The notes under the pieces were generated by a model that saw only the letters and a program-made list of their open reading frames with translations, made no database searches and was not told the DNA's origin. 20,000 bases of DNA from an uncultured virus (IMG/VR IMGVR_UViG_3300046810_000373) (taxonomy: Duplodnaviria > Heunggongvirae > Uroviricota > Caudoviricetes > Schitoviridae). Shown piece by piece: positions 2,982-19,154 of this stretch (positions are counted from its first letter, which is position 1; each line of letters opens with the position of its first letter). A program made the position numbers and the translations under genes. The DNA lies in IMG/VR virus record IMGVR_UViG_3300046810_000373; one strand, 5' to 3'.

Positions 2982-3113
2982 TTCACGACTTGAGCTCGCC
3001 CCCGCCGTCTTTTCCCTCTGAAATAGAAAGAGGAGAAATTAAGGCTTGGTGGATCATGTCTAAATGATGACTCATTTAGACCATCAGGGGCTACGGGCCC
3101 CTCCTCAAGTGAA
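2982..3113 (+). ncRNA. Candidate multi-branched structured RNA
   Basis: Closing stem ACTTGAG/CTCAAGT encloses three hairpins, including GTCTAAATGA-TGAC-TCATTTAGAC and AGGGGC/GCCCCT; no ORF; TTGACA at 2950. Confidence 0.35.
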
Positions 3114-3406
3114 CATAATCCCCAACATAATCATAGATAATATTATCTGATAATCCTTATGTAGGAATTATCTACGGTATTTTTATGGAAACATTAATAT
3201 GATTATGTGGATAACTTTTAGATGGTAAGCCCAAAAGATAATAGAGCTAATCATTATGGAGATAATATTATATAATATTTTTGGGTTTGGTGAAAATTCA
3301 TAGTGACGTGCCAGTGTAGTATCACACCTGGCTCACACCCCTCGAGCTAACCTACCCCCCGGTATGTTTCCTCACACCATATGCATACCACCCCCATCGA
3401 ACTAAC

Positions 3407-3426
3407 GCTGCTGCGCAGCTTCTGGA
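3407..3426 (+). promoter_or_regulatory. N4 virion-RNAP-type hairpin early promoter (Pe1-like), predicted +1 at 3424
   Basis: GCTGC-TGC-GCAGC-TTCT-GGA: on the template strand a 5-bp stem with a C-GCA-G triloop, 4-nt spacer and CC start; same geometry as N4 P2 (template TCCAAAA GAAGC GGA GCTTC). Lies just upstream of the gp1-like gene. Confidence 0.85.
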
Positions 3427-3877: not shown

Positions 3878-4340
3878 TATATCTTAATTAGATAGTACAT
3901 TAATTAATTAACAATCATCATCATATTAACCATAATCAGGATAGATAATCATCTCATAATCCTGATAGTCTCATCTCTGGCTCACAGATCATGTTCATGG
4001 CTCCTGGCTAAAGCCTACCTGGCTCGAGCCAGTGAGATCATCAACGATCGTGCATGTCCTCATCGAGGATCTCATACATGTGAGAATAATGGGAAAGATG
4101 GGGTATTTCAGTACATATTTGTTGAAATACACACTGATCTCATTCCCACTTTTGTGATGTTATACCAATTCAAATCCTAGCTCGTTCTCGAGCTCTCCCT
4201 AAAATCTCCCCCAAATCCAGACCGTTCATAATGGTCTCTGATTTTCCCCTTTCCATTTATCCGGATTATGGTAGTCCCTTTCAAGATATCTATCTTGAGG
4301 GCTATCCATATATGCTCAAACTCCAACCAAGGATAACCAA

Positions 4341-4533: not shown

Positions 4534-4845
4534 ATGCCTAAAAGCAAAGCAGACATTCTTGACGAGATCACCTGTGCTCTCGAAGAGAACGGCTATGCAC
4601 ACATGGCCAATGTTGGCGGCATCGCTTCGATACTGAAAGAACTCGACGATGCTAAGTCAGCGCTCGCTGATATGGTGGATGCATTCCTGGCACGCCATGG
4701 ATGCTTTCCACTCGATCGATGCACTCCTGAACAGCGCCTCTACAATGAGGCCATGCTGAAAGCATATGAGCTGGTCGGATCTCCGTATTCGGAGCTTCGC
4801 GCCACCATCATCGCAGCAGCTACCAGAAATGCTGTGCAATCATGA
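4534..4845 (+). CDS. Hypothetical early protein (MPKSKADIL...)
   Basis: GAGGA SD; true start lies inside the ORF-track 4231..4845; ATGA overlap with the next gene. Confidence 0.65.
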   Translation: MPKSKADILDEITCALEENGYAHMANVGGIASILKELDDAKSALADMVDAFLARHGCFPLDRCTPEQRLYNEAMLKAYELVGSPYSELRATIIAAATRNAVQS

Positions 4846-5225
4846 GGGATGAACTCTTCGTCCTCTTCACGGGGATCTATCTACTGATCATCCTGTGCAT
4901 GTCCTTCTGGGCACTCACTAACACCGATCCAGAGGTCAAATCTTTTGACGATCTCTGGATCAACAATCTGCTCGACAACAGTCTGTTCAGCTCTTTTCGC
5001 GGGCTATCGACTGCAAACGCAGCGCTCGAACAGCCCATCAACAGCTCGAATTACTCTCGATCGGACGCTGAGGGCATCGAGGACAAGAACATGTTCTTCA
5101 CGATCTATTTCAAACAAGACGGACAATGGGTCCTGGTTGACTGTGGTTTACCCATGCAGGCAGCCGCGGATCTGTGTGTCCAGCTCGAGGCCGGCGGCCA
5201 TGAGATCAGAGTGGAGCTATCCTAG
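4842..5225 (+). CDS. Hypothetical membrane-anchored protein (possible internal start at 5091)
   Basis: N-terminal TM LFVLFTGIYLLIILCMSFWAL; GAGGA upstream of the in-frame ATG at 5091. Confidence 0.55.
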   Translation: MRDELFVLFTGIYLLIILCMSFWALTNTDPEVKSFDDLWINNLLDNSLFSSFRGLSTANAALEQPINSSNYSRSDAEGIEDKNMFFTIYFKQDGQWVLVDCGLPMQAAADLCVQLEAGGHEIRVELS

Positions 5226-5240
5226 CTCCTCTCGTCTCGG

Positions 5241-5260
5241 GCCGCTGCGCGGCTTTTGGA
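5241..5260 (+). promoter_or_regulatory. N4 virion-RNAP-type hairpin early promoter (Pe2-like), predicted +1 at 5258
   Basis: GCCGC-TGC-GCGGC-TTTT-GGA; same architecture as the 3407 element, with a compensatory change in the stem. Confidence 0.85.
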
Positions 5261-5275
5261 CCATCTTTGATCCAC

Positions 5276-5386
5276 CAATCAGCGGGTTAGCTGTGGGCCG
5301 TCTGTGACGCTGGCCAGCACGGGCCACAGACCTCTCGAAGAAGTAGCGGTTCGACTCCGCACGGCCCACTGCCAACCCGCTGATTG
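5276..5386 (+). ncRNA. tRNA-like structured RNA (long terminal stem, T-arm and D-arm-like hairpin)
   Basis: 5276-5301 pairs with 5361-5386 (24 bp, 2 mismatches); GCGG-TTCGACT-CCGC T-arm at 5346-5360; GTG-ACGCTGGCCAG-CAC D-arm-like element. Confidence 0.6.
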
Positions 5387-5418
5387 CTCTCTTCGCTCTC
5401 TCACAAGGAACCAACATC

Positions 5419-5643
5419 ATGCATATGGGCCATCGCCTCATCTCCCTGCTCTCGGGCCTTGGCCTGATCGGCATGGGGGAACGTCTTTTCCCGGCAGTCT
5501 CCAATCCCATGGAGATGGAAACCCGGTATCGCATCCCGACCGGGAAGATTTACGCCAGCCGGTCTCGCTACACGCCGGGCGGGCCACACCGCAATTGCGG
5601 CGATCGTGGCATCTCGCCCAAGTCGTTAATCCGCACGGTCTAG
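5419..5643 (+). CDS. Hypothetical early protein
   Basis: AAGGA SD at 5405; 74 aa ORF packed against the next gene. Confidence 0.55.
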   Translation: MHMGHRLISLLSGLGLIGMGERLFPAVSNPMEMETRYRIPTGKIYASRSRYTPGGPHRNCGDRGISPKSLIRTV

Positions 5644-5645
5644 CC

Positions 5646-5780
5646 ATGGACCAGCAGACAATCACATCTGAGCTTTCACTCGATGACGCCATGCGTCTCA
5701 TAAGCTCAGATAATACCAGAGATAATCTCTTCGATTATATCGAAGGGTTATACGATGAGGATGATCTCATCGTCGACTAA
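5646..5780 (+). CDS. Small acidic protein (44 aa, MDQQTITSEL...YDEDDLIVD)
   Basis: ATG 2 nt after the previous stop; 3' part of ORF-track 5304..5780. Confidence 0.5.
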   Translation: MDQQTITSELSLDDAMRLISSDNTRDNLFDYIEGLYDEDDLIVD

Positions 5781-5820
5781 AGAGCTGACAATAACGCCAG
5801 CTCTATTCCATCCCAAACCA

Positions 5821-5836
5821 TGCGCTACCACGCATC
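5821..5836 (+). repeat. 16-bp element TGCGCTACCACGCATC, copy 1 (gp2 leader)
   Basis: Exact copy at 16208-16223; can fold as TGCG-CTACCA-CGCA. Confidence 0.8.
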
Positions 5837-5862
5837 TCAAACGATCTCGAAAGGATCATGTC

Positions 5863-6267
5863 ATGGGTATTCTCGATTTCACGATTCCCGCCAACAAGCC
5901 GGCTGCGAACACCTCGGGCCAGCGCAACGATCGGCCGAAGGCCAAGCTCTGGCTGAACATCGGCTATGAGAGCAACGGCAAGTTCGTCAACCTGCCCGTC
6001 GGTCTCCCGATCGACACCATGGAGGGCGTCAAGGCCACCGGCCAGAACGAAGACTGGATCAAGTTCCAGTCGGCGCGCAATGGCCTCATGGAGGCTCTCC
6101 AGAAGTTCGGCTCCCAGCTCACGCCGGGCCAGGAGGTCGACGTCCCGAATCTGATCATCCGTCTGCGCTCGGTCAACGAGGAGACGGTGGTCGATGCGGC
6201 CACCAATGAATACGCCATCGATCTCTCGGCGATGTTCAAGGCAAGCCAGGCGCAGGCGGCCGAGTAG
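5863..6267 (+). CDS. N4 gp2-like ssDNA-binding activator of RNAP II (Drc-like)
   Basis: AAGGA SD; PKAKLWLNIGY...KFVNLPVGLPIDT...ARNGLME...LTPGQE..LIIRLRSV matches N4 gp2 motifs (KAQFWLNIGY, LPTGIPLDT, LEPGEE). Confidence 0.9.
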   Translation: MGILDFTIPANKPAANTSGQRNDRPKAKLWLNIGYESNGKFVNLPVGLPIDTMEGVKATGQNEDWIKFQSARNGLMEALQKFGSQLTPGQEVDVPNLIIRLRSVNEETVVDAATNEYAIDLSAMFKASQAQAAE

Positions 6268-6298
6268 GCGCGTACTACCTGCGGCAAGCTGTGCCTGC

Positions 6299-6342
6299 GA
6301 GGAGGATCAGGGAGTTATTCCCCTGATCCTCCTCTATTTTTT
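6299..6342 (+). terminator. Rho-independent terminator after gp2
   Basis: GAGGAGGATCAGGG / CCCTGATCCTCCTC 14-bp stem followed by TATTTTTT. Confidence 0.85.
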
Positions 6343-12776: not shown

Positions 12777-13157
12777 ATGATCTTCGTGTTCGGCTCGAAT
12801 TTGGCCGGCATCCACGGCGCCGGCGCTGCTCTCAAAGCAGTCAAATTCCATGGCGCTGTTCTCGGCGATGGCGTCGGGCTTCGCGGTGAAAGCTACGCAA
12901 TACCAACAAAATCTGTGACGTTGCAGACCTTGGCTCTGGATATCATCAAGAGACACGTCGATGAGTTCATTGCTCATGCCGAGGACAATCCCGACCTAGG
13001 CTACCAAGTCACTCGGATCGATTTCGGCCTGGCTGGTTACACCGACCAGGAAATTGCTCCTATGTTCCTCTCTGCCCCTGCGAAGAATTGCTTCTTCGAT
13101 ACCAAGTGGAGACCCATCCTCGGCAACAGGTTCGAGTACTGGGGCAGTTATGGGTAA
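12777..13157 (+). CDS. N4 gp14-like protein (macrodomain-like fold)
   Basis: IFVFGSNLAGIHGAGAA...SYAIPTK...VTRI(DF)GLAGY..IAPMF; located just before RNAP1 as in N4. Confidence 0.85.
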   Translation: MIFVFGSNLAGIHGAGAALKAVKFHGAVLGDGVGLRGESYAIPTKSVTLQTLALDIIKRHVDEFIAHAEDNPDLGYQVTRIDFGLAGYTDQEIAPMFLSAPAKNCFFDTKWRPILGNRFEYWGSYG

Positions 13158-13214
13158 TCTCCTCAAACTATTATTACTGATAATCACAACCGGATTATCT
13201 TTAATACGCGAAAT

Positions 13215-13243
13215 AAGGTCGCTGAGAGATCAGCGGCCTTTTC
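13215..13243 (+). terminator. Terminator-like hairpin upstream of RNAP1
   Basis: AAGGTCGCTGA-GAGA-TCAGCGGCCTT followed by TT. Confidence 0.55.
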
Positions 13244-13332
13244 TACATCCGCAATCCTCGAGTCCAGTATTCCTGGATCTCGTCGCTTCCAATTCCGTCA
13301 TCTCACAGCCCCTGCTTGAGGAGCCCAAACCC

Positions 13333-14136
13333 ATGATCCAGTTTCAGATCGAGATTGAGAAGCTGTTCCACAAGAACCAGCTCTTCCCGCGTATCAAGAA
13401 CGAGTTCACCGAGGTGCCCGGGATCCAGAAGCATCTCGAGAAGCACGGCATCGACATCGAGTTCGGCTATGATCTCCTGGTTCAGATGGTTCTGCACAAG
13501 CGGGCCCATCTCCCAGTCTTGGTCGGCCTACTTCGCAAGCATTTCGAAGGGGACTGCCAGGCCACGGCCGATGCCCTGCTCAAGGCCTGCCAGGCGGACC
13601 TGATCGACTGGAACCCCACCAGTCACCAGTTCATCATCCGCTATGACATCACCCCTGATGTCCAGGCCGAGCTCGAACGCTTCCAGTATCCAATGCCGAT
13701 GGTTGTCGAGCCGTTGAGGCTCAAGGACAATCACGACACCGGCTACTACACCTCGAAGAACTCGGTGATCCTGAAGCAGAACCACCACGACAAGGACGTC
13801 TGCCTCGACCACCTCGATCGCGTGAACCGGATCAAGCTCAAGCTCGATATGGACACGGCCACCACGATCAAGAACTACTGGCGCCACCTCGACAAGCCCA
13901 AGCCTGACGAGGACCAGAAGGAGTTCCAGCGCCGGGTGAAAGCCTTCGAGAAATACGATCGCACCGCCCATGACGTTCTGACCCATCTGGGTCTGGCCGC
14001 CGGCGGGGAGTTCTATCTCACCCACAAGTACGACAAGCGCGGCCGCACCTACGCCCAGGGCTACCACGTCAACTACCAGGGCGCCTGCTGGAATAAGGCC
14101 GTGATCGCCTTTGCCAATGAGGAGATCGTGTCTTGA
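13333..14136 (+). CDS. RNA polymerase II subunit A (N4 gp15-like, RNAP1)
   Basis: GAGGAG SD; QYPMPMVVEP, GY, NHHDKDVCLDHL, FYLTHKYDKRGRTYAQGYHVNYQG (DxxGR motif of T7-like RNAPs). Confidence 0.95.
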   Translation: MIQFQIEIEKLFHKNQLFPRIKNEFTEVPGIQKHLEKHGIDIEFGYDLLVQMVLHKRAHLPVLVGLLRKHFEGDCQATADALLKACQADLIDWNPTSHQFIIRYDITPDVQAELERFQYPMPMVVEPLRLKDNHDTGYYTSKNSVILKQNHHDKDVCLDHLDRVNRIKLKLDMDTATTIKNYWRHLDKPKPDEDQKEFQRRVKAFEKYDRTAHDVLTHLGLAAGGEFYLTHKYDKRGRTYAQGYHVNYQGACWNKAVIAFANEEIVS

Positions 14137-16252: not shown

Positions 16253-17461
16253 ATGTTTCAGACCTTCACTGGGCGCGAATACCTCAAGATCGACATCGCC
16301 AATAACTTCGGCGGCGGTCTCGATAAGCAGGACTGGAATGCTCGCATTGCCTGGTTCGACCAGAACGAGAACCAGCTCAGTGCCTTGGTCAAGCAGGCCG
16401 AGGAACCTGCTCTCTTCTACGCCGGCGCCGTAGCCTGGCAGAAGATGAAAGAGGGTAAGCCCTCGGGCTACCCGATCTCACTCGATGCAACATCTTCGGG
16501 GATCCAGATCCTCGCCTGTCTTGCCGGCGATCGCAAAGCTGCCGAGCTCTGCAATGTCATCGACACCGGCCGTCGGGAGGATGCCTATACTGTCCTCTAT
16601 GAGCACATGGTCAACGAGATCGCCGACACCGCCAAGATCGACCGCAAGCAGACGAAGCAGGCCATCATGACCAGCTTCTATGGCTCCACCGCCATGCCTA
16701 AGAACATCTTCGGCGAAGGCGAGCTGCTCGACGTCTTCTACAAGACCATGCAAGAGCGTGCTCCCGGCGCCTGGGAGATCAACGAGACCATGCTCGCCAT
16801 CTGGGACGATAAGGCCCTGGTGAACGAGTGGGCCATGCCCGACAACTTTCATGTCGTCGTCAAGGTCATGAACTCGGTCTCCGAGAACGTGCACTTCCTC
16901 AACCAGCCCTTCGAGGTCACCTACTCCGTCAACGAGCCGATCGAGAATGGGCGGTCCCTGGGAGCCAATGTCGTTCATTCCATTGACGGCATGATCGTTC
17001 GGGAGATGGCCCGTCGCTGCTCCTTCGACCTGGCCATGATCGAGCGTCTGGAGAACCTCATCCGGCGCTGCGTCAAGACCAAGAACACCCATCGAGCCAA
17101 GGACGATATGGTCCTGATCCTGTGGGGCCGCTATCTGGAATCGGGCTTTCTCTCAGCCCGGATCCTCGACTATCTCGACGAGGAGAACTTCGGTCTCGTC
17201 GATCGTGACGCTATCGTCCGAATGCTGAACAGCCTGCCCCGCAAGCCCTTCGACGTAATCTCGGTCCATGACTGCTTCAGGTGCCTGCCCAACTATGGCA
17301 ACGATCTGCGGCAGCAATACAACAATCTCCTGGCCGAGATCGCCGAATCCGAGATGCTCAGCTTCCTGGTCTCGCAGATCGTGCATCGGCCGGTCCAGGT
17401 CGCCAAGCTCGATCCCACTTTGGCTCGGGACGTGCGGTCCACCAACTACGCGCTCTCCTGA
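16253..17461 (+). CDS. RNA polymerase II subunit B (N4 gp16-like, RNAP2)
   Basis: AGGAG SD; motif A LDATSSGIQ, motif B RKQTKQAIMTSFYGS, NVVHSIDG, motif C VHDCF. Confidence 0.96.
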   Translation: MFQTFTGREYLKIDIANNFGGGLDKQDWNARIAWFDQNENQLSALVKQAEEPALFYAGAVAWQKMKEGKPSGYPISLDATSSGIQILACLAGDRKAAELCNVIDTGRREDAYTVLYEHMVNEIADTAKIDRKQTKQAIMTSFYGSTAMPKNIFGEGELLDVFYKTMQERAPGAWEINETMLAIWDDKALVNEWAMPDNFHVVVKVMNSVSENVHFLNQPFEVTYSVNEPIENGRSLGANVVHSIDGMIVREMARRCSFDLAMIERLENLIRRCVKTKNTHRAKDDMVLILWGRYLESGFLSARILDYLDEENFGLVDRDAIVRMLNSLPRKPFDVISVHDCFRCLPNYGNDLRQQYNNLLAEIAESEMLSFLVSQIVHRPVQVAKLDPTLARDVRSTNYALS

Positions 17462-18714: not shown

Positions 18715-18936
18715 ATGCCCAAAGCTCCTGATCTGAAGGCGCTCGTTTTTGAGAGCCTCAACAACGCGAAGCTGAACACCGCTTTCGAGCCCGGCGGTAG
18801 TCTCCGCAATCTCTCTTTGGAGCAGATCGCCATCGATCTCTGCTCATATTCCTCAGACCTGGATCACGTCGACGAAATCAAAGAGGTGATCCCCCATATC
18901 GAGGCCTGGTTCAAAGAAATTGGAACAGGCCCATGA
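18715..18936 (+). CDS. Hypothetical protein (MPKAPDLK...)
   Basis: In-frame ATG after the terminator; ATGA overlap with the next gene. Confidence 0.65.
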   Translation: MPKAPDLKALVFESLNNAKLNTAFEPGGSLRNLSLEQIAIDLCSYSSDLDHVDEIKEVIPHIEAWFKEIGTGP

Positions 18937-19154
18937 TCGAGCTTCTCCCTCACGAGGACTTCAAGCTCGAGGTCCTGCGACCTCCTGGTCCAGGAGGTCA
19001 GCACGCCGGTACGGTTCCCACCACGATCCGGATCACCCATCTTCCGTCTGGAGCCATGGCCCAATATGGCGCCTGCCGCTCACAGCACCTCAATAAGACG
19101 ATCGCTTCCGAGATGCTCTTGGCTGCGCTGACCCACCCCCGTCACAACCGCTAA
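18933..19154 (+). CDS. Stand-alone RF-1/GGQ domain protein (release-factor-like peptidyl-tRNA hydrolase domain)
   Basis: DFKLEVLR.PGPGGQH.....IRITHLPSG.......RSQHLNK..A..ML aligns with the class I release factor domain 3 consensus. Confidence 0.85.
   Translation: MIELLPHEDFKLEVLRPPGPGGQHAGTVPTTIRITHLPSGAMAQYGACRSQHLNKTIASEMLLAALTHPRHNR

What the first reader, a model, noticed from the sequence alone, without database searches (positions are those of the whole stretch)
5258..5390. tRNA-mimic RNA as the first product of an early virion-RNAP promoter
Seen: 18 nt after the predicted +1 (5258), 5276-5301 pairs with 5361-5386 (24 bp, 2 mismatches). A T-arm GCGG-TTCGACT-CCGC abuts the 3' strand exactly as a T-arm stacks on an acceptor stem, and a D-arm-like hairpin GTG-ACGCTGGCCAG-CAC carries the GG that could contact the T-loop. 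There is no proper anticodon arm and no free CCA end, so it is not a normal tRNA. Inference: an immediate-early ~110-nt tRNA-elbow mimic. It could be a decoy for host tRNA-targeting nucleases or toxins, a Y-RNA-like scaffold, or an RNase III/RNase P processing signal for the gp2 operon. The arm order is tRNA-like rather than the permuted YrlA order.
Basis: partly seen in the sequence, partly recalled or inferred. Interest (0 to 1): 0.8.

Follow-up and report, generated by a model that had tools for sequence, protein, structure and literature searches.

The report
Scrambled tRNA-Gln relic in phage leader
A soil phage related to N4 carries, just behind one of its probable first promoters, a broken copy of a glutamine tRNA gene folded into a long hairpin; nearly identical phages lack it, so it is an optional extra rather than a core part of infection.

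Summary
Arms 5276-5301 and 5361-5386 pair at 24 of 26 positions; 40 shuffled windows reached at most 20. A textbook T-arm (5346-5360) abuts the 3' strand. The element starts 18 nt after the start site implied by an N4-type hairpin motif that occurs twice in the window.

It is not a working tRNA. ARAGORN finds nothing at default settings. Rfam gives only a sub-threshold tRNA-Sec match (26.2 bits; cut-off 47).

It looks derived from tRNA-Gln. Its acceptor stem plus T-loop pattern matched 120 bacterial loci, and all 23 that I checked are tRNA-Gln. The D region keeps weak similarity and the anticodon arm keeps none.

The key result concerns conservation. Contigs about 97% identical nearby, from two other rhizosphere runs, replace 5261-5644 (the element plus a 74-codon gene) with 23 nt. 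A third run shows one side of the same junction. No homologue turned up in 55 related phage loci, a phage collection or a plasmid collection.

Best reading (0.5): a scrambled tRNA-Gln relic in a strain-specific early cassette that acts, at most, in cis as a leader or processing structure. The trans-acting tRNA-mimic decoy is not excluded (about 0.12). Interest is moderate to low.

The parts
3407..3426 (+). First copy of the hairpin motif GCYGC-TGC-GCRGC-TTYTGGA; probable N4-type virion-RNAP early promoter ahead of the first + strand gene
   Evidence: 2 matches, 0.04 expected. The template-strand loop is GCA (G-N-A). No + strand gene lies upstream for it to terminate.
5241..5258 (+). Second copy: 5-bp stem, 3-nt loop, 5-bp stem (5241-5253), TTTT spacer (5254-5257), implied start G5258
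   Evidence: The geometry matches the N4 early promoters as described in passages of PMC4496689. No differences from the relatives are listed for 5220-5260.
5261..5644 (+). Strain-specific 384-nt segment (element plus ORF74); related phage populations have 23 other letters in its place
   Evidence: tables 5, 5c and 8. A 73,773-nt contig in run X2 and a contig in run X3 join 5260 to 5645. A loose end in run X4 shows the right side of the same junction.
5276..5301 (+). 5' strand of the long helix (P1); its inner 7 nt, 5294-5300 (TGGGCCG), are the tRNA-Gln-like acceptor 5' strand
5300..5331 (+). Middle hairpin P2 (7 bp, 5300-5306 with 5325-5331, 18-nt loop holding GG 5312-5313).
   Evidence: P2 pairing probability 0.69-0.95, D-stem 0.0. 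Energies: three-way junction -55.3, cloverleaf-like -50.8, MFE -61.1 kcal/mol.
5323..5345 (+). Region where the anticodon arm and variable loop should be; no tRNA-Gln similarity and no canonical anticodon arm
   Evidence: 292 of 300 shuffles match tRNA-Gln anticodon arms at least as well; only a 5-position stem with one mismatch and one G-U, and a loop without U33, at 80% thresholds.
5346..5360 (+). T-arm: 4-bp stem and 7-nt loop TTCGACT with the G53-C61-type closing pair
   Evidence: (pairing probability 0.98)
5361..5386 (+). 3' strand of P1; 5362-5368 (CGGCCCA) is the tRNA-Gln-like acceptor 3' strand; G-CCA at 5371-5374 is displaced by 2 nt and is paired within the helix
5419..5643 (+). ORF74, a small protein with a hydrophobic N-terminus; real gene; the second part of the strain-specific segment
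   Evidence: Homologues at 81% (P0044) and 51% (L176) identity. No family in PHROGs or Pfam.
5646..5780 (+). ORF44, the first gene behind the promoter in the relatives that lack the segment
   Evidence: Both differences from the relatives inside it (5714, 5744) fall on third codon positions.
5863..6267 (+).
   Evidence: start at M37; 197 phage records
6299..6334 (+). Strong terminator-like hairpin (14 pairs plus a T run) closing this transcription unit

Best explanation
The 111-nt element 5276-5386 is a scrambled, no longer decodable copy of a tRNA-Gln gene.

What is still tRNA-like: the acceptor stem, positions 8-9, the T-arm and a displaced G-CCA. The D region is only faintly recognisable and the anticodon arm is lost. 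The sequences flanking the acceptor stem have become complementary, which turns that stem into a 24-bp helix.

Where it sits: it is part of a 384-nt strain-specific segment, together with a 74-codon gene. That segment begins 3 nt after the start site of a probable N4-type hairpin promoter. Related phage populations, about 97% identical nearby, lack the whole segment. The element is therefore an accessory piece of the variable early region, not a conserved component.

Inferred, not shown: it is transcribed as the 5' leader of the ORF74 - ORF44 - gp2-like early mRNA. It folds into a three-way junction of long helix, middle hairpin and T-arm. Any effect it has is in cis. It would be either a very stable leader or a site of endonucleolytic processing. 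RNase III-type cleavage could act on the 24-bp helix, and RNase P-type recognition could act on the acceptor/T-arm stack. Processing would release a small, stable tRNA-shaped by-product. It is not a working tRNA.
For: Structure is real and non-random.

Not a tRNA by standard tools: ARAGORN finds 0 genes in the window. Rfam finds nothing at gathering score. The best sub-threshold hit is tRNA-Sec at 26.2 bits against a cut-off of 47, carried by the acceptor and T-arm only.

tRNA-Gln descent:
- The pattern acceptor-5' ... All 23 of the 23 that I scanned carry tRNA-Gln exactly there.
- Positions 8-9 (TC) also agree with those tRNAs, although the pattern did not ask for them.
- The D region is more like tRNA-Gln than its shuffles: 10 of 300 shuffles reach the best score and 5 of 300 reach the mean score.
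- ARAGORN at 80% thresholds draws a degenerate cloverleaf at 5295-5369.
- Related rhizobial N4-like phages carry true tRNA-Gln genes: OLIVR1, ort11 and metagenome locus L011.
- OLIVR1 also holds another tRNA relic whose anticodon arm is truncated.

Accessory status:
- 5261-5644 is replaced by 23 nt in contigs from runs X2 and X3, and run X4 shows the right side of the junction.
- A covariance model of the element finds only itself in 56 sources totalling 332,915 bases.
- blastn finds nothing in the phage or plasmid collections at E <= 1.
- The ORF74 homologue in L176 has no such element upstream.

Promoter context.
Against: - Uniform neutral decay does not explain the pattern. The T-loop (7 of 7 consensus positions plus the closing pair) and the acceptor stem (7 of 7 pairs) are intact, while the anticodon arm is entirely gone.
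- The 17 extra base pairs beyond the acceptor stem (15 paired, 2 mismatched) are far beyond chance and need either selection or a palindrome-making event.
- Presence/absence polymorphism next to an early promoter is also what accessory counter-defence loci look like.
- The tRNA-Gln assignment partly rests on a pattern that I built from the element itself. The independent support (positions 8-9, D region with p about 0.02-0.03) is modest.
- No RNA data exist, so transcription, folding and cleavage are all inferred.
- The hairpin at 5241 followed by TTTT could also act as a terminator for the upstream genes.
Confidence: 0.5

Rival explanations
1. Trans-acting tRNA mimic. The early transcript is processed to a tRNA-shaped RNA of about 75-110 nt without an anticodon. 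This RNA titrates or misleads a host factor that reads the tRNA top half or elbow: a tRNA-directed defence nuclease or toxin, a modification or processing enzyme, or the transamidation machinery that recognises the U1-A72 pair of tRNA-Gln.
For: The acceptor/T-arm half is intact and the tRNA elbow nucleotides are present (U8, A14, GG, T-loop). It would be the first RNA made from a probable early promoter. It is accessory and strain-variable, as anti-defence genes often are. The selective loss of only the anticodon arm fits a mimic that must not decode. YrlA shows that bacterial and phage RNAs can mimic tRNA and can be cut by RNase P (passages of PMC4201824).
Against: There is no homologue anywhere I could search, so no covariation is available. 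Near-identical phages do without it. There is no free 3' end or CCA, because the acceptor stem is buried in a 24-bp helix. The fold model does not support the D-arm. No partner protein such as Ro60 appeared among the 31 window ORFs scanned.
Confidence: 0.13
2. DNA-level element: a quasi-palindrome that acts as DNA. It could be a cruciform, a recombination hot spot or a MITE-like mobile insertion, and its tRNA likeness would be irrelevant to what it does.
For: The 26-nt arms resemble terminal inverted repeats. The element lies inside an insertion/deletion polymorphism whose left edge is 3 nt past the promoter's start site. The minus strand folds as well as the plus strand.
Against: There is only a single copy: no second copy in the window or in 55 related loci, and none in 72,556 plasmid or 50,697 phage records. 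I saw no target-site duplication at its ends. The polymorphic segment is larger than the element and includes a gene. The T-arm placement is very unlikely by chance once the repeat is given: about 2e-5 by my own rough calculation, which is not a tool result.
Confidence: 0.1
3. An independent structured RNA (regulatory leader or unknown ncRNA) that merely uses a T-loop motif and is not descended from a tRNA.
For: From general knowledge, not from a call here: T-loop motifs recur in many RNAs. The best thermodynamic fold is a three-way junction, not a cloverleaf. The 5' strand can pair with either of two similar downstream segments (5319-5329 or 5361-5371), which is a switch-like layout.
Against: The acceptor stem, positions 8-9, the overall length (75 nt against 70-74) and the nearby G-CCA all fit tRNA-Gln. 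No Rfam family other than tRNA-Sec scores at E <= 0.1. The ribosome-binding site of ORF74 lies 20 nt outside the structure, so no obvious control of translation follows.
Confidence: 0.07
4. A functional but unusual tRNA.
For: At 80% thresholds ARAGORN draws a cloverleaf with anticodon ACA.
Against: Nothing is found at default or 95% thresholds. That anticodon loop lacks U33 and its stem has a mismatch. The discriminator and the CCA region are base-paired. The Rfam score is far below the cut-off.
Confidence: 0.02

Closest known systems
tRNA genes and tRNA relics in the early region of rhizobial N4-like phages (OLIVR1, ort11, RHph_X3_15)
   Same: Same phage group and same strand as the early genes. 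tRNA-Gln is carried by OLIVR1, ort11 and metagenome locus L011. OLIVR1 has an unannotated tRNA-like element with a truncated anticodon arm and a 10-bp acceptor helix.
   Different: Those tRNA-Gln genes score 58-69 bits and are called by ARAGORN. This element scores 26 bits and is not called. Its acceptor helix is extended to 24 bp. There is no sequence homology between them beyond the tRNA consensus.
YrlA / bacterial Y RNAs (tRNA mimics bound by Ro60)
   Same: A non-decoding RNA of about 100 nt with a T-arm, D-loop-like features and a long terminal helix. It is found in phages too, and one member is cut by RNase P (PMC4201824, passages read).
   Different: [quoted passage not shown] Here the terminal helix is the acceptor stem itself. 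No Ro60 gene is in the window, there is no Rfam match, and the Ro-stem motif is not present in a helix.
Intercistronic RNase III processing hairpins of T7-type early transcripts; tRNA-like processing signals such as mascRNA or mitochondrial tRNA punctuation (recalled, no call)
   Same: Long duplexes or tRNA-shaped modules inside an mRNA precursor that host endonucleases cut. This is the cis mechanism I favour.
   Different: Cleavage here is entirely untested. The element is not conserved, whereas those signals are.
Coliphage N4 early promoters P1-P3 (for the hairpin at 5241)
   Same: A 5-bp GC-rich stem, a 3-nt loop that reads G-N-A on the template strand, a 4-nt spacer and then the start site. 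Repeated upstream of early genes (PMC4496689 passages).
   Different: The centre of the template loop is C, not the G contacted in N4. Only two copies are seen. The virion RNAP gene is outside the window. There is no transcript mapping.

Membership tests
Canonical tRNA (Rfam RF00005 / ARAGORN) | 7-bp acceptor stem stacked on a T-arm with a T-loop consensus | tested here: met
   7 (up to 9) acceptor pairs; 4-bp T-stem plus an A/A mismatch; loop TTCGACT; pairing probability 0.98.
Canonical tRNA (Rfam RF00005 / ARAGORN) | Anticodon arm: 5-bp stem and 7-nt loop with U33 | tested here: not met
   no similarity to tRNA-Gln anticodon arms. The best drawing has a mismatch, a G-U pair and C at position 33.
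Canonical tRNA (Rfam RF00005 / ARAGORN) | D-arm | tested here: inconclusive
   A 3-4 bp stem with A14 and GG can be drawn, and the region is weakly tRNA-Gln-like. However, its pairing probability is 0.0 against a competing 7-bp helix.
Canonical tRNA (Rfam RF00005 / ARAGORN) | Score above the programs' thresholds | tested here: not met
   ARAGORN finds none at default or 95%. Rfam gives 26.2 bits (tRNA-Sec, cut-off 47) and nothing at gathering score.
Canonical tRNA (Rfam RF00005 / ARAGORN) | Single-stranded discriminator and 3' CCA, or a site where one can be added | tested here: not met
   position 73 and the nearby G-CCA are paired inside the 24-bp helix.
YrlA / Y RNA | Encoded next to a Ro60 (Rsr, TROVE) gene | tested here: not met
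   none of the 31 window ORFs scanned matches such a family. The rest of the genome is not held.
YrlA / Y RNA | Match to the family model; T and D arms flanking a closed acceptor-like stem-loop; Ro-binding terminal stem with a GNCGAAN0-1G motif | tested here: not met
   no YrlA match at E <= 10. The arm order is tRNA-like. Only CTCGAAG (5334-5340) resembles the motif, and it lies in a predicted single-stranded linker.
tmRNA tRNA-like domain | Detected by ARAGORN or Rfam; alanine-type acceptor; tag reading frame | tested here: not met
N4-type virion-RNAP hairpin promoter (for 5241-5258) | 5-7 bp stem, 3-nt loop centred at -11, fixed spacer to +1, several copies before early genes | tested here: met
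   There are only two copies.
N4-type virion-RNAP hairpin promoter (for 5241-5258) | Transcription start at the predicted base by the injected polymerase | not testable with these tools
   No RNA run holds the stretch.
MITE / intergenic repeat element | Multiple copies; target-site duplication | tested here: not met
   single copy; no duplication seen.
Intrinsic terminator | GC-rich hairpin followed by a U run | tested here: not met
   there is no T run after 5386.

The most novel reading that the evidence does not exclude
The element is an accessory, immediate-early, anticodon-less mimic of tRNA-Gln. After the long helix is trimmed, it would act in trans on a host factor that reads the acceptor/T-arm half or elbow of tRNAs. 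It would be a counter-defence or takeover RNA that this strain gained as a cassette directly behind an injected-polymerase promoter. OLIVR1's anticodon-arm-less tRNA relic would then be a second, independent example of the same strategy.
Probability: 0.12. Interest if true: 0.8.

Novelty: new variant of a known kind. Interest (0 to 1): 0.35.

Why it matters
If the element is only a relic, it is a clear snapshot of how phage tRNA genes decay. It also shows how the DNA just behind N4-type early promoters turns over between near-identical strains. That is useful for annotation, because such relics escape tRNA finders and may be miscalled as ORFs: here a 158-codon frame runs through the element.

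If instead it is processed into a stable tRNA-shaped RNA, it would be a new kind of phage non-coding RNA. Natural variants with and without it already exist, which makes a test straightforward.

Tried and rejected
- No whole genome is held for the window, so other copies or a virion RNAP gene could not be sought.
- Close relatives sought by single proteins in IMG/VR gave 1 distant locus and then 0 loci. An exact 24-mer of the element in IMG/VR gave 0.
- Profile-based retrieval gave 13 metagenome and 38 IMG/VR N4-like loci, none closer than 63% in the neighbouring protein. ARAGORN, Rfam and my covariance model found no counterpart of the element in them.
- The same profile found nothing in genome contigs.
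- RNA evidence: no RNA holder is listed for the stretch. All four runs laid are DNA contigs.
It remains unknown whether the element accompanies it.
- The Protein Atlas gave nothing for ORF74. PHROGs and Pfam gave nothing for the ORFs overlapping or flanking the element.
- A PDB sequence search with the gp2-like family gave only chance-level hits. I therefore do not claim identity with N4 gp2 or LUZ7 Drc.
- MAFFT misaligned the 5' end of the element against tRNA-Gln, so I used anchored region tests instead.
- The integron attC, retron, CRISPR-repeat mimic and terminator readings were considered and dropped for lack of their defining motifs or partner genes (from sequence inspection).
- Literature: four full-text searches listed no paper describing a tRNA-like RNA behind an N4-type early promoter. 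I judged this from titles, abstracts and term counts only; none of the N4-like papers listed held the term 'tRNA-like'.

Full report
CONTEXT. The window is the early (left) region of an N4-like podophage (Schitoviridae).
- The two subunits of the middle RNA polymerase lie at 13054-14136 and 16253-17461 (PHROGs 'N4-like RNA polymerase' and 'RNA polymerase', E 8e-93 and 7e-163).
- The nearest named phages infect Rhizobiales: Sinorhizobium phage ort11 (64% amino-acid identity), the Rhizobium RHph phages (about 62%) and Agrobacterium phage OLIVR1 (60%).
- The DNA occurs in rhizosphere metagenome runs.
- No whole genome is held.

THE OBSERVATION.
- The arms 5276-5301 and 5361-5386 are 92% complementary (24 of 26), with 59 nt between them. 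This is the best local inverted repeat in the window. In 40 dinucleotide-preserving shuffles the best such repeat reached only 18-20 of 26.
- As RNA the + strand folds at -61.8 kcal/mol (z -5.81; 0 of 200 shuffles as good). The - strand folds as well (z -6.12). The strand is therefore assigned by content, not by energy.
- The T-loop consensus GGTTCRANYCC occurs once in the window, on the + strand at 5348-5358. The genes and the promoter-like hairpin are on + as well.
- The T-arm (GCGG / TTCGACT / CCGC, 5346-5360) has a pairing probability of 0.98. It abuts the 3' strand of the long helix, as a T-arm abuts an acceptor stem.
However, the model gives that stem probability 0.0 and prefers a 7-bp helix, 5300-5306 with 5325-5331 (0.69-0.95).
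- Energies: three-way junction -55.3, cloverleaf-like drawing -50.8, unconstrained optimum -61.1 kcal/mol. The GG of the supposed D-loop stays unpaired in either fold.

THE PROMOTER.
- The hairpin 5241-5253 (5-bp stem, 3-nt loop), then TTTT, then G5258, shares a 20-nt motif with a second site at 3407-3426. Both are on the + strand. Chance expectation is 0.04, and 0 of 200 shuffles gave two matches.
- On the template strand both loops read G-C-A.
- Passages of the N4 polymerase review describe early promoters with a hairpin centred at -11, a 3-base loop with a sheared G:A pair, and four template A residues acting as a ruler to the start site (PMC4496689).
- The first copy has no upstream + strand gene to terminate, which favours a promoter over a terminator.
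- This remains a prediction. There are only two copies, the virion polymerase gene is outside the window, and there are no RNA data.

WHAT THE ELEMENT IS NOT.
- ARAGORN calls no tRNA or tmRNA in the window. Rfam finds nothing at gathering scores.
- With permissive settings on 5150-5500 the only notable match is tRNA-Sec at 5293-5369: 26.2 bits against a cut-off of 47, E 0.0036 for that 351-nt search. Confident alignment is confined to the acceptor stem and T-arm. No YrlA or tmRNA match appears at E <= 10.

WHERE IT COMES FROM.
- I searched one genome per bacterial species with a pattern made of the element's acceptor 5' strand, a T-loop consensus and its acceptor 3' strand. All 23 of the 23 loci that I passed to ARAGORN carry tRNA-Gln exactly at the match.
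- Beyond what the pattern imposed, positions 8-9 (TC) agree with 10 of the 11 matched bacterial tRNA-Gln sequences aligned; the two phage tRNA-Gln genes in that alignment differ. The span from position 1 to 72 is 75 nt against 70-74. A G-CCA stands 2 nt after the acceptor stem.
- I compared the element with the 50 distinct inner sequences of those 120 tRNAs. The D region is more similar than its own shuffles (10 of 300 reach the best score, 5 of 300 the mean). The anticodon region is not (292 of 300), and neither is the variable region (270 of 300).
- With ARAGORN's thresholds lowered to 80%, a degenerate cloverleaf is drawn at 5295-5369. Its anticodon stem has one mismatch and one G-U, and its loop lacks U33. 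At default and 95% thresholds nothing is reported.
- Related phages carry true tRNA-Gln genes: OLIVR1, ort11 and metagenome locus L011.
- OLIVR1 also has an unannotated tRNA-like element (L002 3071-3137, Rfam tRNA 52.3 bits). By my reading of the sequence, its anticodon arm is reduced to a 10-nt palindrome and its acceptor helix runs to 10 bp. It is 77.8% identical over 56 nt to tRNA-Thr of Caulobacter phages.
- tRNA gain and decay in the early region of this phage group is therefore documented.

THE KEY RESULT: IT IS NOT CONSERVED.
- I laid the contigs of four rhizosphere runs on 4800-6300. Run X1, possibly the window's source, carries the stretch unchanged.
- Run X2 (a 73,773-nt contig) and run X3 match both sides with 15-19 differences per 460-656 nt. 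Both join 5260 to 5645, with the same 23 other letters in between. Run X4 has a loose end with the last 12 of those letters before 5645.
- The missing 384 nt hold the element and ORF74 (5419-5643). The 23 letters resemble the window's own leader and start codon of ORF74 (5398-5421). In the relatives, that leader directly precedes ORF44 (5646-5780).
- The left breakpoint is 3 nt past the predicted start site.
- The element is therefore part of a cassette that is present in one population and absent from the others seen.
- A covariance model of the element (single sequence, 33 pairs) finds only the element itself in 56 sources totalling 332,915 bases. These comprise 13 metagenome and 39 IMG/VR N4-like loci and 3 named phages. 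With filters off it finds nothing in L176 (best 7.2 bits).
- blastn of 5261-5400 finds nothing at E <= 1 in 50,697 phage or 72,556 plasmid records.
- ARAGORN finds only OLIVR1's tRNA in the 38 IMG/VR loci retrieved with the gp2-like profile. Rfam at gathering scores finds only that same tRNA in those loci plus L176.
- ORF74 is a real gene. In L176 it has no tRNA-like neighbour and is flanked by a different repeated hairpin.

HOW IT MOST LIKELY WORKS. Shown:
- a non-random three-way-junction RNA or DNA structure;
- a tRNA-Gln-like top half;
- a position 18 nt behind a probable early start site;
- accessory status.

Inferred: transcription as the 161-nt leader of the ORF74 - ORF44 - gp2-like mRNA, which ends at the strong terminator-like hairpin 6299-6334. 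The gp2-like gene (5863-6267) has homologues in 197 phage records, named 'RNAP1 subunit A' or 'ssDNA-binding protein'.

I favour (0.5) a tRNA-Gln relic whose effect, if any, is in cis. It would be a very stable leader, or a processing site cut in the 24-bp helix by an RNase III-type enzyme or recognised as an acceptor/T-arm stack by RNase P. A tRNA-shaped by-product would result.

Two features keep the functional readings alive.
- Decay is not uniform: the T-loop and acceptor stem are perfect while the anticodon arm is erased.
- The 17 extra pairs beyond the acceptor stem need either selection or a palindrome-forming event such as template switching. That mechanism is my suggestion and is not tested.

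The trans-acting mimic (0.13), a DNA-level palindrome (0.10), an unrelated T-loop RNA (0.07) and an odd but working tRNA (0.02) are the rivals.

COMPARISON WITH KNOWN SYSTEMS.
- It works most like tRNA-shaped or long-duplex processing modules in precursor RNAs. By descent it is closest to the phage tRNA-Gln genes and tRNA relics of rhizobial N4-like phages.
- It fails the membership tests for canonical tRNA: anticodon arm, scores and free 3' end.
- It fails for YrlA: no model match, tRNA-like arm order, no Ro60 gene among the 31 ORFs scanned. The YrlA features come from PMC4201824 passages.
- It also fails for tmRNA, MITEs and terminators.
- One survey of viral structured RNAs mentions tRNA-like candidates in general terms only (PMC10690425, passages read).
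- Four full-text searches listed no paper on a tRNA-like RNA behind an N4-type early promoter. I saw only the listings for most of them.

VERDICT. The promoter context is plausible. The tRNA likeness is genuine but best read as descent from tRNA-Gln. The lack of any conservation, even among phages about 97% identical around it, argues against a core early function. Interest 0.35; a new variant of a known kind (tRNA-derived element).

Noticed in passing
L002 (OLIVR1, MT234338.1) 3071-3137: An unannotated tRNA-like element: Rfam tRNA 52.3 bits, above the cut-off, yet missed by ARAGORN and by the record's annotation. By my reading the D-arm, T-arm and acceptor stem are intact, the anticodon arm is reduced to a 10-nt palindrome, and the acceptor helix is extended to 10 bp. 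It is 77.8% identical over 56 nt to tRNA-Thr of Caulobacter phages. Its 3' end overlaps the start of the annotated gp10 CDS (3135).
   Followed up: partly
L002 (OLIVR1) 4584-4664: A tRNA with discordant calls: the record says Thr, ARAGORN says Ala(agc) with the anticodon at position 37. Rfam gives 43.8 bits. By my reading, the anticodon arm is a 9-bp stem with a 5-nt loop.
   Followed up: no
L002 (OLIVR1) 3960-4009: A type I hammerhead ribozyme-like match just under the Rfam cut-off (31.4 against 34 bits, E 0.00043) in an intergenic gap of the early region.
   Followed up: no
window 18933-19154: A small ORF (73 aa) matching PHROG families described as 'RF-1 domain peptide chain release factor' (E 6e-8 and 2e-6). 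This is a release-factor/peptidyl-tRNA-hydrolase-type domain in a phage.
   Followed up: no
window 3114-3141, 3922-3949, 5699-5726: An AT-rich repeat family ending in ...AGATAAT (68-71% identity to the reference copy). Two copies lie in the AT-rich non-coding stretches of the left end. The third lies inside ORF44, upstream of the gp2-like gene. It is possibly a second promoter class.
   Followed up: no
L176 1606-1650, 1914-1958, 2207-2254: In the IMG/VR contig that carries the ORF74 homologue, the same motif of about 45 nt (an 8-9 bp GC-rich hairpin plus conserved flanks) stands between successive small genes. It is a phage-specific promoter or terminator candidate.
   Followed up: no
L179/L178 (ort11 70996-73022), L177 (RHph_X3_15 73010-73458), L002 60-210, L011 469-542: Rhizobial N4-like phages repeatedly carry tRNA-Gln and/or tRNA-Asn. 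OLIVR1 has Asn and Gln; ort11 has Pro, Asn, Thr, Gln and Arg; RHph_X3_15 has Pro, Asn and Thr; L011 has Gln. From recall, Gln and Asn are the two tRNAs charged through the transamidation route in many Rhizobiales. I did not check this.
   Followed up: no
protein P0029: A homologue of the gp2-like early protein is recorded on a 475-kb Mesorhizobium contig. This suggests an integrated N4-like element or remnant in a bacterial chromosome.
   Followed up: no
window 5304-5780: A 158-codon open frame starting at a GTG runs through the element and into ORF44. It has no family match, and its first 114 codons lie in the segment missing from the relatives. It is an annotation trap rather than a gene.
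   Followed up: partly
window 5318-5331 and 5360-5373: Two similar 14-nt segments (11 of 14 identical by my count) give the 5' strand of the helix two alternative partners. A proximal hairpin, 5291-5301 with 5319-5329, would pair at 10 of 11 positions. The layout is switch-like, or it is a trace of an internal duplication.
   Followed up: partly
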